Under the pieces are notes generated by a model. The model searched no databases. It saw nothing but the letters and a program-made list of their open reading frames with translations, and was not told where the DNA came from. A DNA stretch of 64,000 nt from the human T2T-CHM13v2.0 reference genome, Homo sapiens: the NCBI RefSeq assembly GCF_009914755.1, contig NC_060935.1; one strand, given 5' to 3'. Within the stretch, counting starts at the first letter, position 1; each line of letters opens with the position of its first letter. A program made the position numbers and the translations under genes. Shown here piece after piece: positions 45,221 through 63,000 of this stretch.

Positions 45221-48200
45221 TCAATTCCCACCTATGAGTGAGAATATGTGGTGTTTGGTTTTTTGTTCTTGCGATAGTTTACTGAGAATGATGATTTCCA
45301 ATTTCATCCATGTCCCTACAAAGGACATGAACTCATCATTTTTTATGGCTGCATAGTATTCCATGGTGTATATGTGCCACATTTTCTTAATCCAGTCTAT
45401 CATTGTTGGACATTTGGGTTGGTTCCAAGTCTTTGCTATTGTGAATAATGCCGCAATAAACGTACGTGTGCATGTGTCTTTATAGCAGCATGATTTATAG
45501 TCATTTGGGTATATACCCAGTAATGGGATGGCTGGGTCAAATGGTATTTCTAGTTCTAGATCCCTGAGGAATCGCCACACTGACTTCCACAATGGTTGAA
45601 CTAGTTTACATTCCCACCAACAGTGTAAAAGTGTTCCTATTTCTCCACATCCTCTCCAGCACTTGTTGTTTCCTGACTTTTTAATGATTGCCATTCTAAC
45701 TGGTGTGAGATGATATCTCATAGTGGTTTTGATTTGCATTTCTCTGATGGCCAGTGATGATGACCATTTTTTCATGTGTTTTTTGGCTGCATAAATGTCT
45801 TCTTTTGAGCAGTGTCTGTTCATGTCCTTCGCCCACTTTTTGATGGGGTTGTTTGTTTTTTTCTTGTAAATTTGTTTGAGTTCATTGTAGATTCTGGATA
45901 TTAGCCCTTTGTCAGATGAGTAGGTTGCGAAAATTTTCTCCCATGTTGTAGGTTGCCTGTTCACTCTGATGGTAGTTTCTTTTGCAGTGCAGAAGCTCTT
46001 TAGTTTAATTAGATCCCATTTGTCAATTTTGGCTTTTGTTGCCATTGCTTTTGGTGTTTTGGACATGAAGTCCTTGCCCATGCCTATGTCCTGAATGGTA
46101 ATGCCTAGGTTTTCTTCTAGGGTTTTTATGCTTTTAGGTCTAACGTTTAAATCCTTAATCCATCTTGAATTGATTTTTGTATAAGGTGTAAGGAAGGGAT
46201 CCAGTTTCAGCTTTCTACATATGGCTAGCCAGTTTTCCCAGCACCATTTATTAAATAGGGAATCCTTTCCCCATTGCTTGTTTTCCTCAGGTTTGTCAAA
46301 GATCAGATAGTTGTAGGTATGCGGCGTTATTTCTGAAGGCTCTGTTCTGTTCCATTGATCTATATCTCTGTTTTGGTACCAGTACCATGCTGTTTTGGTT
46401 ACTGTAGCCTTGTAGTATAGTTTGAAGTCAGGTAGTGTGATGCCTCCAGCTTTGTTCTTTTGGCTTAGGATTGACTTGCCGATGCGGGCTCTTTTTTGGT
46501 TCCATATGAACTTGAAAGTAATTTTTTCCAATTCTGTGAAGAAAGTCATTGGTAGCTTGATGGGGATGGCATTGAATCTGTAAATTACCTTGGGCAGTAT
46601 GGCCATTTTCACGATAAAGATTCTTCCTACCCATGAGCATGGAATGTTCTTCCATTTGTTTGTATCCTCTTTTATTTCCTTGAGCAGTGGTTTGTAGTTC
46701 TCCTTGAAGAGGTCCTTCACATCCCTTGTAAGTTGGATTCCTAGGTATTTTATTCTCTTTGAAGCAATTGTGAATGGGAGTTCACTCATGATTTGGCTCT
46801 CTGTTTGTCTCTTATTGGTGTATAAGAATGCTTGTGATTTTTGTACATTGATTTTGTATCCTGAGACTTTGCTGAAGTTGCTTATCAGCTTAAGGAGATT
46901 TTGGGCTGAGAAGATGGGGTTTTCTAGATAAACAATCATGTTGTCTGCAAACAGGGACAATTTGACTACCTCTTTTCCTAATTGAATACCCTTTATTTCC
47001 TTCTCCTGCCTGATTGCCCTGGCTAGAACTTCCAACACTATGTTGAATAGGAGAGGGGAGAGAGGGCATCCCTGTCTTGTGCCAGTTTTCAAAGGGAATG
47101 CTTCCAGTTTTTGCCCATTCAGTATGATATTGGCTGTGGGTTTGTCATAGATAGCTCTTATTATTTTGAAATACATCCCATCAATACCTAATTTATTGAG
47201 AGTTTTTAGCATGAAGGGTTGTTGAATTTTGTCAAAGGCTTTTTCTGCATCTATTGAGATAATCATGTGGTTTTTGTCTTTGGTTCTGTTTATATGCTGG
47301 ATTACATTTATTGATTTGCGTATATTGAACCAGCCTTGCATCCCAGGGATGAAGCCCACTTGATCATGGTGAATAAGCTTTTTCATGTGCTGCTGGATTC
47401 GGTTTGCCAGTATTTTATTGAGGATTTTTGCATCAATGTTCATCAAGGATATTGGTCTAAAACTCTTTTTGGTTGTGTCTCTGCCCGGCTTTGGTATCAG
47501 AATGATGCTGGCCTCATAAAATGAGTTAGGGAGGATTCCCTCTTTTTCTATTGATTGGAATAGTTTCAGAAGGAATGGTACCAGTTCCTCCTTGTACCTC
47601 TGGTAGAATTCGGCTGTGAATCCATCTGGTCCTGGACTCTTTTTGGTTGGTAAACTATTGATTATTGCCACAATTTCAGCTCCTGTTATTCGTCTATTCA
47701 GAGATTCAACTTCTTCCTGGTTTAGTCTTGGGAGAGTGTATGTGTTGAGGAATGTATCCATTTCTTCTAGATTTTCAGTTTATTTGCGTAGAGGTGTTTG
47801 TAGTATTCTCTGATGGTAGTTTGTATTTCTGTGGGATCAGTGGTGATATCCCCTTTATCATTTTTTATTGTGTCTATTTGATTCTTCTCTCTTTTTTTCT
47901 TTATTAGTCTTGCTAGCGGTCTATCAATTTTGTTGATCCTTTCAAAAAACCAGCTCCTGGATTCGTTGATTTTTTGAAGGGTTTTTTGTGTCTCTATTTC
48001 CTTCAGTTCTGCTCTGATTTTAGTTATTTCTTGCCTTCTGCTAGCTTTTGAATGTGTTTGCTCTTGCTTTTCTAGTTCTTTTAATTGTGATGTTAGGGTG
48101 TCAATTTTGGATCTTTCCTGCTTTCTCTTGTGGGCATTTAGTGCTATAAATTTCCCTCTACACACTGCTTTGAATGTGTCCCAGAGATTCTGGTATGTTG

Positions 48201-60091: not shown

Positions 60092-63000
60092 ATGACAGGA
60101 TCAAATTCACACATAACAATATTAACCTTAAATGTAAATGGGCTAAATGGTCCAGTTAAAAGACACAGACTGGCAAATTGGATAAAGAGTCAAGACCCAT
60201 CAGTGTGCTGTATTCAGGAAACCCATCTCACATGCAGTGACACACATAGGCTCAAAATAAAGGGATGGAGGAAGATCTACCAAGCAAATGGAAAGCAAAA
60301 AAAGGCAGAGGCTGCAATCCTAGTCTCTGATAAAACAGACTTTAAGCCAACAAAGATCAAAAGAGACAAAGGAGGCCATTAGATAATGGTAAAGGGATCA
60401 ATTCAACAAGAAGAGCTAACTATCCTAAATATATATGCACCCAATACAGGAGCACCCAGATTCATAAAGCAAGTCCTTAGAGACCTACAAAGAGACTTAG
60501 ACTCCCATACAATAATATTGGGAGACTTTAACACCCCACTGTCAACATTAGACAGATCAACAAGACAGAAAGTTAACAAGGATATCCAGGAATTGAACTC
60601 AGCTCTGCACCAAGCAGACCTAATAGACATCTACAGAACTCTCCACCCCAAATCAACAGAATATACATTCTTTTCAGCACCGCACCACACCTATTCCAAA
60701 ACTGACCACATAGTTGGAAGTAAAGCACTCCTCAGCAAATGTAAAAAACAGAAATTATAACAAACTGTCTCTCAGACCACAGTGCAACCAAACTAGAACT
60801 CAGGATTAAGAAACTCACTCAAAACTGCTCAACTACATGGAAACTGAACAACCTGCTCCTGAATGACTACTGGGTACATAACAAAACGAAGGCAGAAATA
60901 AAGATGTTCTTTGAAACCAATGAGAACAAAGACACAACATACCAGAATCTCTGGGACACATTCAAAGCAATGTGTAGAGGGAAATTTATAGCACTAGATG
61001 CCCACAAGAGGAAGCAGAAAAGATCTAAAATTGACACCCTAACATCACAATTAAAAGAACTAGAGAAGCAACAGCAAAAACACTCAAAAGCTAGCAGAAG
61101 GCAAGAAATAACTAAGATCAGAGCAAAACTGAAGGAAATAGAGACACAAAAAACCCTTCAAAAATCAATGAATCCAGGAGCTGGTTTTTTGAAAACATCA
61201 ACAAAATTGATAGACCGCTAGCAAGACTAATAAAGAAGAAAAGAGAGAAGAATCAAATAGATGCAATAAAAAATGATAAAGGAGATATCACCACCAATCC
61301 CACAGAAATACAAACTACCATCAGAGAATACTGTAAACACCTCTATGCAAATAAACTAGAAAATCTAGAAGAAATGGATAAATTTCTCAACACACCCTCC
61401 CAAGACTAAACCAGGAAGAAGTTGAATCTCTGAATAGACCAATAACAGACTCTAAAATTGAGGCAATAATTAATACCTTACCAACCAAAAAAAGTCCAGG
61501 ACCAGATGGATTCACAGCCGAATTCTACCAGAGGTACAAGGAGGAACTGGTACCATTCCTTCTGAAACTATTCCAATCAATAGAAAAAGAGGGAATCCTC
61601 CCTAACTCATTTTATGAGGCCAGCAACATCCTGATACCAAAGCCTGACAGAGACACAACAAAAAAAGAGAATTTTAGACCAATATCCCTGATGAACATTG
61701 ATGCAAAAATCCTCAATAAAATACTGGCAAACCAAATCCAGCAGCACATCAGAAAGCTTTTCCACCGTGATCAAGTGGGCTTCATCCCTGGGATGCAAGG
61801 CTGGTTCAACATATGCAAATCAATAAAAGTAATCCAGCATATAAACAGAACCAACGACTAAAACCACATGTTTATCTCAATACATGCAGAAAAGGCCTTT
61901 GACAAAATTCAACACTTCATGCTAAAAACTCTCAATAAATTAGGTATTAATGGGACATATCTCAAAATAACAAGAGCTATCTATGACAAACCCACAGCCA
62001 ATATCACTGAATGGGCAAAAACTGGAAGCATTCCCTTTGAAAACGGGCACAAGACAGGGATGCCCTCTCTCACCACTCCTATTCAACATACTGTTGGAAG
62101 TCCTGGCCAGGGCAATCAGGCAGGAGAAGGAAATAAAGGGTATTCAATTAGGAAAAGAGGTAGTCAAAACGTCCCTGTTTGCAGATGACATGATTGTATA
62201 TCTAGAAAACCCCATCTTCTCAGCCCAAAATCTCCTTAAGCTGATAAGCAACTTCAGCAAAGTCTCAGGATACAAAATCAATGTGCAAAAATCACAAGCA
62301 TTCTTATACACCAATAAGAGACAAACAGAGAGCCAAATCATGAGTGAACTCCCATTCTTCACAATTGCTTCAAAGAGAATAAAATACCTAGGAATCCAAC
62401 TTACAAGGGATGTGAAGGACCTCTTCAAGGAGGACTACAAACCACTGCTCAATGAAATAAAAGAGGATAAAAACAAATGGAAGAACATTCCATGCTCATG
62501 GGTAGGAAGAATCTTTATCGTGAAAATGGCCATACTGCCCAAGGTAATTTACAGATTCAATGCCATCCCCATCAAGCTACCAATGCCTTTCTTCACAGAA
62601 TTGGAAAAAACTACTTTCAAGTTCATATGGAACCAAAAATGAGCCCGCATTGCCAAGTCAATCCTAAGCCAAAAGAACAAAGCTGGAGGCATCATGCTAC
62701 CTGACTTCAAATTATACTACAAGGCTACAGTAACCAAAACAGCATGGTACTGGTACCAAAACAGAGATATACACCAATGGAACAGAACAGAGCCCTCAGA
62801 AATAATGCCACATATCTACAACTATCTGATCTTTGACAAACCTGACAAAAACAAGAAATGGGGAAAGGATTCCCTATTTAATAAATGGTGCTGGGAAAAC
62901 TGGCTAGCCATATGTAGAAAGCTGAAACTGGATCCCTTCCTTACATCTTATACAAAAACTAATTCAAGATGGATTAAAGACTTAAATGTTAGACCTAAAA

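What the first reader, a model, noticed from the sequence alone, without database searches (positions are those of the whole stretch)
46500..62625. Cross-subfamily sequence exchange between inverted L1-B and L1-C in the RT region
Seen: L1-B (L1PA2, -) and L1-C (older, +) share five unusual changes within ~460 bp at exactly homologous positions. They are 46968/62161 (EEVK>EVVK), 46912/62217 (PIVS>PIFS), 46811/62318 (NRQ>KRQ), the double change 46617-18/62514-15 (aat>ttt, RINI>RIFI) and 46514/62618 (TLKF>TFKF). L1-A has the ancestral base at all five, and the older L1 at ~35600-35725 has it at the two sites it covers. Differences persist between the shared sites (gtttat/gtatat, gtacaa/gtgcaa, aaggaa/aatgaa, a ttc duplication only in C). 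Inference: the subfamilies differ, so a common source element is unlikely, and repeated short-tract non-allelic gene conversion fits best. It may run both ways, since B has old-type 'accaat' and C has young-type 'tttacaga' and 'ggcattacc' (63031).
Basis: partly seen in the sequence, partly recalled or inferred. Interest (0 to 1): 0.85.

Follow-up and report, generated by a model that had tools for sequence, protein, structure and literature searches.

The report
Patchy gene conversion between neighbouring L1s
Two independently inserted, oppositely oriented L1 retrotransposons 16 kb apart, and a third about 200 kb away, have copied short patches of sequence from one another, which is a clear but ordinary example of gene conversion between repeats.

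Summary
L1-B (45005-51032, -) and L1-C (57991 to beyond 64000, +) carry the same base at all five claimed places.

Four of the changes are rare genome-wide by exact pattern:
- AA>TT doublet: 3 copies, against 6568 copies of the ancestral 25-mer.
- EVVK: 24 copies.
- PIFS: 72 copies.
- KRQ: 75 copies.

EVVK and PIFS occur together only in B and C. TFKF is common and not unusual.

All three TT carriers lie within 203 kb: B, C and a third L1, "D", about 187 kb upstream of B. A, B and C each have their own target-site duplication. B's two sibling copies lack the shared alleles. A common source element or a duplication is therefore excluded.

The best reading is non-allelic gene conversion. One part is a discontinuous exchange between C and B, probably C to B. 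The other is a contiguous block of 169 bp or less in C that matches D's type. This is a known kind of process.

I could not test other human haplotypes or ape orthologues, so an assembly artefact and the directions of transfer remain open.

The parts
45005..51032 (-). L1-B, a full-length young L1. It has poly-A on the minus strand and is flanked by the 13-bp target-site duplication AAAAACCAATATC at 44992-45004 and 51033-45.
   Evidence: Self-BLAST. Flank reading and exact TSD positions. ORF1 is open at 338 aa and ORF2 is in two pieces of 388 and 846 aa.
57991..64000 (+). L1-C, a full-length older L1 that runs past the window end to about 64127. The left TSD-like AATAATAAAAGGAC is at 57977-90, and its right partner has one mismatch.
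   Evidence: 93.5% identity to B over 5149 bp; extra 5'UTR segment, as in two other older copies; ends read from L001.
46514..47012 (-). Tract in B with C-like states. Secure sites are 46968 T, 46912 T, 46814 T, 46811 G and 46618-17 TT. 47012 C is probable. 46913 C and 46514 C are ambiguous. B keeps its own type at 46844, 46679 and 46546.
62117..62618 (+). Homologous tract in C carrying the same alleles. Changes private to C lie between them: 62169-70, the TTC insertion at 62358-60, 62433 and 62470.
62499..62639 (+). Block in C identical over 141 bp to L1-D, the longest D-C perfect run in the 3.5 kb compared. It contains TT plus three D-type bases foreign to C's age class (62552, 62586, 62618). 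It is bounded by C-private 62470 and 62640. L1-D itself lies outside the window, so it cannot be listed as a part. It is at chr11:100297571-100301063, + strand (window -142429 to -138937), and only its 3' 3.5 kb was read. It is the third and last carrier of the TT doublet in the genome (TT at window -140562/-140561).
21144..27208 (+). L1-A, a sibling of B from the same rare sub-lineage, used as a proxy for B's original state. The 20-bp TSD GAAAGTCATTGAATGGTTTT is at 21124-43 and 27209-28.
51046..57976 (.). Spacer of about 6.9 kb between the two 5' ends. B and C lie head to head as an inverted repeat, and the exchanged tracts are about 15-16 kb apart.
   Evidence: Coordinates.

Best explanation
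After three independent L1 insertions (B, C and D), DNA-level non-reciprocal copying between the paralogues moved short stretches of sequence among them. This is ectopic, or non-allelic, gene conversion.

1. A block of 105-169 bp in the older element C (62514-62618) was overwritten by sequence of D's type.
2. Within about 350-500 bp of the reverse-transcriptase region, B acquired C's alleles in at least three separate patches: 47012/46968-46912, 46814-46811 and 46618-17. B kept its own bases in between.

The likely mechanism is repair of a break in the recipient using the nearby homologous L1 as template. The patches could come from one heteroduplex corrected patchily, or from several short events. 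This mechanism is inferred.

Shown here: the shared alleles, their rarity, their clustering, and the independence of the insertions.
Inferred here: the direction (C to B about 0.6; D-type to C about 0.75), the number of events, and the repair pathway.
For: Rarity:
- The TT 25-mer has 3 copies genome-wide (B, C, D), all in chr11:100.299-100.503 Mb, against 6568 copies of the ancestral 25-mer.
- Counts for EVVK, PIFS and KRQ are 24, 72 and 75.
- EVVK and PIFS occur jointly only in B and C.

Independence of the insertions:
- A, B and C have separate TSDs.

Lineage:
- A and B share derived alleles along the whole 6 kb.
- The copy at chr11:98.28 Mb shares 5 of the 6 such alleles that fall within its 1272 aligned bases.
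- Both siblings have the other base at 46968, 46912, 46814, 46811 and 46618-17.

Clustering:
- Of 13 sites where B differs from both A and the young majority but equals C, 9 lie in 47012-46514. A scan simulation reached this in 2 of 200000 runs.
- In the window 47000-46500, sites grouping A+B against C fall to 7, the lowest count of any 500-bp window lying wholly within the element. Sites grouping B+C against A number 13. The element-wide totals are 339 and 74.
- B-C identity peaks at 96.3-97.7% there, and B is closer to C than to A in 47034-46738.
- B is the nearest of 83 copies to C in the tract, with 15 differences against 17 for the next. It is also the top genome hit for C's tract, 838 against 824 bits, with 40 of 1668 candidates scored.

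Direction:
- B's 46814 T is C's natural old-type base, 3 bp from the rare G.
- C's five consecutive deviations at 62514-62618 all equal D. The 45-mer carrying two of the block's D-type bases (62586 C and 62618 C) occurs in 16 copies genome-wide.
Against: - The B tract is not contiguous. B keeps its own base at 46844, 46679 and 46546, where C differs, so one simple tract fails.
- The converted alleles show no GC bias. They are A>T, G>T, C>T, C>G and AA>TT.
- D is 187-203 kb away, which is far for frequent exchange.
- The direction C to B rests securely on one site (46814), on 47012, and on a mutation-load argument.
- 46913 sits in a CpG, and 46514 is polymorphic among young copies.
- No second human haplotype and no ape orthologue could be examined. 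A scan of prokaryote genome contigs for a stray copy found nothing.
- The reference panels were chosen by similarity or by carrying an allele, so panel frequencies are biased at those sites.
Confidence: 0.8

Rival explanations
1. Assembly or polishing cross-contamination. Reads from one L1 were used to correct another, copying single bases between paralogues.
For: The pattern is one of isolated shared bases with unchanged neighbours, which is what mis-mapped-read correction would give. Only one assembly was available, and no independent copy was found (0 hits in prokaryote genome contigs).
Against: - B and C differ by about 6.5% overall and by about 3% in the tract.
- The third carrier, D, is about 200 kb away.
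- The D-like block in C is a clean 141-bp run bounded by private changes.
- From recall, not from a call: this assembly was built from long accurate reads and received few polishing edits.
Confidence: 0.07
2. Short templated patches were made by replication template switching between the inverted L1 arms, rather than by break-repair gene conversion.
For: B and C are inverted repeats 7 kb apart at their 5' ends. The patches are very short (2-100 bp) and discontinuous. There is no GC bias.
Against: D lies in direct orientation to C and 203 kb away, yet shares a 141-bp block with it. From recall: template-switch mutations usually use templates within tens to hundreds of bases. Sequence alone cannot separate this from patchy heteroduplex repair.
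Confidence: 0.1
3. B and C (and D) descend from one rare source lineage that already carried the alleles.
For: All the alleles lie in one short region, and small L1 sub-lineages do exist.
Against: - B's siblings A and the 98.28-Mb copy lack the alleles.
- C is of an older type with a different 5'UTR.
- B, C and D are no closer overall than random copies.
- Three dispersed insertions landing within 203 kb has a chance of about 1e-8. This figure is my own arithmetic.
Confidence: 0.02
4. B arose as a chimeric cDNA. Reverse transcriptase switched between an A-type RNA and RNA transcribed from C.
For: From recall: mosaic L1 lineages formed by RNA-level recombination are described in rodents. C is full length.
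Against: This needs B to land 7 kb from C by chance. It gives a contiguous tract, not alternating patches. It cannot put a D-type block into the older, already inserted C.
Confidence: 0.02
5. Independent recurrent mutation at the same sites.
For: Each of EVVK, PIFS and KRQ recurs tens of times in the genome. One chrX copy has PIFS and KRQ together.
Against: Six identical changes, five of them transversions and one a tandem doublet seen 3 times against 6568, occur in neighbours only.
Confidence: 0.01

Closest known systems
Non-allelic gene conversion among Alu elements. Sources: review PMC6598467 (passages read) and primate screen PMC8230782 (abstract and passages read).
   Same: Post-insertion copying between dispersed retroelement copies. 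It crosses subfamilies, runs both young-to-old and old-to-young, and produces partial 'mosaic' elements. PMC6598467 cites Aleshin and Zhi 2010 for a raised rate between nearby copies (under 10 kb).
   Different: Here the elements are 6-kb L1s. The distances are 16 kb and about 200 kb. The B tract is discontinuous at single-site scale. Direction is inferred without orthologues, whereas the Alu screen used orthologous primate loci.
L1 gene conversion reports. Burton et al. [quoted passage not shown] Their content, and that of Vincent 2003 and Tremblay 2000, is recalled, not read.
   Same: Replacement of part of a resident L1 by sequence from another L1.
   Different: As I recall them, those cases involve longer replacements by young active-type sequence. 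Here an older dead copy seems to be the donor to a younger one, in patches.
Arm-to-arm gene conversion in inverted repeats and palindromes (recalled, for example Y-chromosome palindromes).
   Same: An inverted arrangement with a short spacer, and intrachromosomal non-reciprocal exchange.
   Different: Palindrome arms are duplicates kept above 99.9% alike. The chrY pair L056/L057 is 100% identical. B and C are independent insertions, 93.5% alike, homogenised only in patches.
Mosaic L1 lineages formed by RNA-level recombination (recalled, rodent L1).
   Same: Cross-subfamily mosaic structure.
   Different: That process acts before insertion, and its products are dispersed. Here the partners are neighbours and one recipient is an old resident copy.

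Membership tests
Non-allelic (ectopic) gene conversion | The partners are paralogous loci of independent origin, not duplicates of one locus. | tested here: met
   A, B and C have distinct TSDs and non-homologous flanks. D's flanks were not read.
Non-allelic (ectopic) gene conversion | Shared derived alleles are confined to a tract, and the flanks keep each copy's own lineage. | tested here: met
   Alleles specific to the A-B lineage lie on both sides (47057; 46337, 46285). C-like states lie between them.
Non-allelic (ectopic) gene conversion | The outcome is homogenisation (both copies end with the same allele), not reciprocal exchange. | tested here: met
   Identical bases at all the sites in both copies. 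There is no chimeric arm structure, as a crossover or inversion would give.
Non-allelic (ectopic) gene conversion | A single contiguous tract. | tested here: not met
   B is unconverted at 46844, 46679 and 46546 inside the tract. The feature is met for the D-type block in C. Contiguity is typical rather than obligatory, because discontinuous tracts are described (recalled).
Non-allelic (ectopic) gene conversion | The pre-conversion state is visible at the orthologous locus in another species or haplotype. | not testable with these tools
   Only this one human assembly could be searched.
Non-allelic (ectopic) gene conversion | The partners are physically close on one chromosome. | tested here: met
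   The tracts are 15-16 kb apart (B, C). D is 187 kb from B and 203 kb from C. No other TT carrier exists in 3.1 Gb.
   No consensus library was available. B groups with young copies 97-98% alike that lack the extra 5'UTR segment. At 47012, 46913 and 46514 it carries bases seen in only part of that group.

The most novel reading that the evidence does not exclude
B, C and D may be a visible node of a general process. Very short, discontinuous, templated exchanges between neighbouring L1s, across subfamilies and over distances up to hundreds of kb, may be common enough to spread 'private' mutations locally and to blur L1 subfamily assignment and dating.

The hit lists hint at this. Rare alleles come in neighbouring, often inverted, pairs:
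- KRQ: chr10 (4 kb apart), chr12 (13 kb), chr13 (10 kb) and a chr4 triple within 118 kb.
- PIFS: a chr5 pair 14 kb apart that shares 18 further rare alleles confined to 1.7 kb.
- The 16-copy C-C haplotype has 4 copies within chr11:99.8-102.7 Mb.

Some pairs are plain segmental duplicates, 100% identical, so the share due to conversion is unknown.
Probability: 0.3. Interest if true: 0.6.

Novelty: new member of a known kind. Interest (0 to 1): 0.4.

Why it matters
This is a clean case with genome-wide controls showing that dead L1 copies keep exchanging sequence after insertion. An older copy appears to donate to a younger one, and the exchange occurs in patches of a few to about 150 bp.

Such exchange violates the assumption that each copy mutates independently. 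That assumption underlies L1 subfamily calls, age estimates from divergence, and source-element tracing.

It also marks this head-to-head L1 pair as recombinationally interacting, and so as a candidate site for inversion.

Tried and rejected
- I looked for an independent copy of the TT allele in prokaryote genome contigs, as stray contamination. There were 0 hits, which gives no check on the assembly.
- The PRDM9-like 13-mer has 4 matches in the window and none in either tract. The nearest is in the L1 3'UTR at 45148.
- A DNA search with B's 5'UTR, meant to size the A/B sub-lineage, was uninformative. A was not among the 40 scored of 4740 candidates.
Two shorter gapped patterns replaced it.
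- A KRQ carrier 96 kb downstream of C (chr11:100598847) is an old copy, 92.6% identical to B over its 793 aligned bases, and has only that one allele. I take it as coincidence.
- The chr12 carrier of the A-B 32-mer is an old copy, about 87% identical. I also take it as coincidence.
- In the 5' 2.6 kb there was no site where B equals C while A and all four young relatives differ (0 sites, panel of only 6 copies).
- A crossover or inversion between B and C is rejected, because B is A-like on both sides of the tract.
- Literature searches found no description of this locus. L1-specific conversion papers appeared only as reference entries.
- Supplements were not consulted.
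Full report
**Anatomy**

The window is human chr11:100440001-100504000. A self-comparison finds three full-length L1s:
- A, in + sense. Its body is 21144-27208.
- B, in - sense, 45005-51032.
- C, in + sense, from 57991 to beyond the window end.

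B is 97.3% identical to A over 6048 bp and 93.5% identical to C over 5149 bp.

Each element has its own target-site duplication:
- B: 13 bp at 44992 and 51033.
- A: 20 bp at 21124 and 27209.
- C: a 14-bp pair with one mismatch.

They are therefore separate insertions. B and C lie head to head with a spacer of about 6.9 kb. C and two other older copies carry an extra segment of about 125 bp, and their 5'UTR is only 84-87% like B's. B's ORF1 is open, and its ORF2 is in two pieces.

**The observation**

All five claimed site pairs are as stated. Both copies translate to EVVK, PIFS, NKRQ, RIFI and TFKF. A has the other base at all five. The old L1 fragment at about 35.0-35.9 kb has the ancestral base at the two sites it covers.

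**Rarity**

The whole assembly could be searched by exact pattern.
- The 25-mer with the AA>TT doublet occurs 3 times: in B, in C and in a third L1, "D", at chr11:100299429. The ancestral 25-mer occurs 6568 times.
- The EVVK 21-mer occurs 24 times.
- The PIFS 26-mer occurs 72 times.
- The KRQ 26-mer occurs 75 times.
- EVVK and PIFS together occur only in B and C.
- PIFS and KRQ together occur in B, C and one chrX copy. That is about what chance allows.

TFKF is common. It is in 13 of the 27 aligned copies of the match-ranked panel L003-L030 (D left out) and in B's closest relatives, so it carries no weight. Exact-pattern counts undercount old, diverged copies. The ancestral count gives the matching denominator.

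**What B was before**

I aligned A, B, C and D with 79 other L1 copies over the 3' 3.5 kb. The 79 were made up of:
- 27 best genome matches to C's tract;
- 22 EVVK carriers;
- 30 PIFS carriers.

Eight of the 87 loci were left out because they were duplicates of B, C or D. Three further copies (E, F12 and G98) were added to this alignment. I also aligned A, B and C with six full-length copies over the 5' 2.7 kb.

A and B share derived alleles along the whole element. A 32-mer holding two of these alleles occurs 4 times in the genome: in A, in B, in a copy at chr11:98282173 that is 97.7% identical to B over 1272 bp, and in an old chr12 copy. The 98.28-Mb copy shares 5 of the 6 A-B alleles that fall within its aligned part. 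A and that copy are therefore B's siblings. Both have the other base at 46968, 46912, 46814, 46811 and 46618-17.

**Clustering**

There are 13 sites where B differs from both A and the young majority but equals C. Nine of them lie in 47012-46514. The other four are at sites that vary among young copies. A random-placement scan reached 9 of 13 within 500 bp of 6000 in 2 of 200000 runs.

In the window 47000-46500, sites grouping A+B against C fall to 7, the lowest count of any 500-bp window lying wholly within the element. Sites grouping B+C against A number 13. The element-wide totals are 339 and 74. B-C identity peaks there at 96.3-97.7%.

B is the closest of 83 copies to C in the tract, with 15 differences against 17 for the next. 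It is also the top genome hit for C's tract, though only 40 of 1668 candidates were scored.

I grade the nine sites as follows:
- Secure (six): 46968, 46912, 46814, 46811, 46618 and 46617.
- Probable: 47012.
- Ambiguous: 46913, which is the C of a CpG, and 46514.

**Patchiness**

Inside the tract B keeps its own base at 46844, 46679 and 46546, where C differs. It also lacks C's private changes at 62169-70, the TTC insertion at 62358-60, 62433 and 62470. The private changes may be later than the exchange, but 46844 at least is a subfamily difference. At least three separate patches are therefore needed. They could come from one heteroduplex corrected site by site, or from several events. The sequence cannot tell which.

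**Direction**

B's 46814 T is C's normal old-type base and lies 3 bp from the rare 46811 G. B's siblings and nearest relatives have C there. With the alleles counted as C's private mutations, B's private load in the tract matches its average of about 1%. Counted as B's own, the load doubles (my arithmetic). I put C to B at about 0.6.

**The third element**

L1-D lies outside the window, at chr11:100297571-100301063 on the + strand (window -142429 to -138937). Only its 3' 3.5 kb was read.

C deviates from the majority of 34 older copies at 73 sites in the 3' 3.5 kb. Eleven of these are shared with A, B or D. Five consecutive ones (62514, 62515, 62552, 62586, 62618) all equal D. The flanking deviations at 62470 and 62640 are private.

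D and C are identical over 62499-62639. This 141-bp run is their longest in the 3.5 kb. B lacks the base at 62586. The 45-mer carrying 62586 C and 62618 C occurs 16 times genome-wide, in young-type copies including D. C therefore holds a contiguous block of D's type, 105-169 bp long. Where TT first arose is not resolved.

The first of them belongs to this block.

**Rivals**

- A common source is contradicted by the siblings, by C's different type, and by location. The chance that three dispersed insertions fall within 203 kb is about 1e-8 (my arithmetic).
- Duplication is contradicted by the TSDs.
- A chimeric cDNA cannot explain a change in the older resident C, or the patches.
- A crossover or inversion is excluded, because B is A-like on both flanks.
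- An assembly artefact could not be tested, as no second haplotype was available (one search found nothing). I leave it at about 0.07.

**Comparison with what is known**

Non-allelic gene conversion between retroelement copies is well described for Alu. The descriptions include cross-subfamily events in both directions, partial 'mosaic' products and a raised rate at short range (PMC8230782, abstract and passages; PMC6598467, passages). L1 conversion is in the older literature, but I saw it only as reference entries in PMC5640379. Four searches found nothing on this locus.

This is a new instance of a known kind. It is notable for three things: an apparently old-to-young direction, single-site patchiness, and a partner about 200 kb away.

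**Verdict**

Interest is moderate.

Noticed in passing
21144-27208 and 45005-51032; L090 (chr11:98281780-98283380): A, B and a copy at chr11:98.28 Mb form a rare L1 sub-lineage. A 32-mer with two of its alleles occurs only 4 times genome-wide, and the fourth carrier is an old chr12 copy. All three young members lie within 2.2 Mb, two of them 22 kb apart in opposite orientation, yet A and B each have their own TSD. I found no explanation for this regional clustering of siblings.
   Followed up: partly
hit lists (genome coordinates): Rare L1 alleles often sit in neighbouring pairs elsewhere in the genome. KRQ: chr10 66245972/66250107, chr12 86827012/86840457, chr13 53253336/53263684, and three copies on chr4 within 118 kb. 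PIFS: chr5 132395145/132409499 and chr1 157354790/157477408. The C-C haplotype: chr5 131828037/131853032. Many pairs are in opposite orientation. For 75 random points I expect about 0.04 pairs within 20 kb (my arithmetic).
   Followed up: partly
L081 and L082 (chr5:132.395 and 132.409 Mb): This is an inverted L1 pair 14 kb apart and 95.9% identical. It shares 18 alleles that are rare in the panel. All 18 lie in the 3' 1.7 kb of the 3 kb compared, and none in the 5' 1.3 kb. This could be a long conversion tract or an old partial duplication.
   Followed up: partly
L056/L057 (chrY) and L029/L030 (chr7:54.39/54.47 Mb): These pairs are 100% identical over 3021 and 2363 bp. They are plain segmental or palindromic duplicates, which shows that not all neighbouring allele sharing is conversion.
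   Followed up: yes
L003, L004, D and C (chr11:99.79-102.75 Mb): Four of the 16 genome copies of the 45-mer with 62586 C and 62618 C lie within 3 Mb of chr11. One of them is C, which acquired it secondarily.
   Followed up: partly
50689, 50657, 50181, 48874, 48658, 48655, 48466 (B coordinates; the sites are in L1-A): L1-A has old-type bases matching C and at least one of the two older copies at 7 sites in its 5' half. B has the young base at all 7, and the four young relatives do so at all but one cell. A may be a mosaic too. The panel had only 6 copies.
   Followed up: no
46942 (B): B has a private G>A here that turns the reverse-transcriptase FADD motif into FADN. C keeps FADD. The exchanged tract brackets this motif.
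   Followed up: no
chrX:71734826-71734940: This is the only other copy in the genome with PIFS and KRQ together. It lacks EVVK and TT.
   Followed up: partly
L088 (chr11:100598300-100599300, about window 158300-159300): An old L1, 92.6% identical to B over 793 bp, lies 96 kb downstream of C and carries KRQ alone. The chance of such a neighbour is about 1% by my arithmetic. I treat it as coincidence, but this is not excluded as a further partner.
   Followed up: partly
27018-27030, 45148-45160, 63953-63965: Matches to the recombination-hotspot 13-mer CCNCCNTNNCCNC fall in the G-rich 3'UTR tract of A, B and C. There are 4 matches in the window against 0.83 expected, and none is inside the exchanged tracts.
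   Followed up: no
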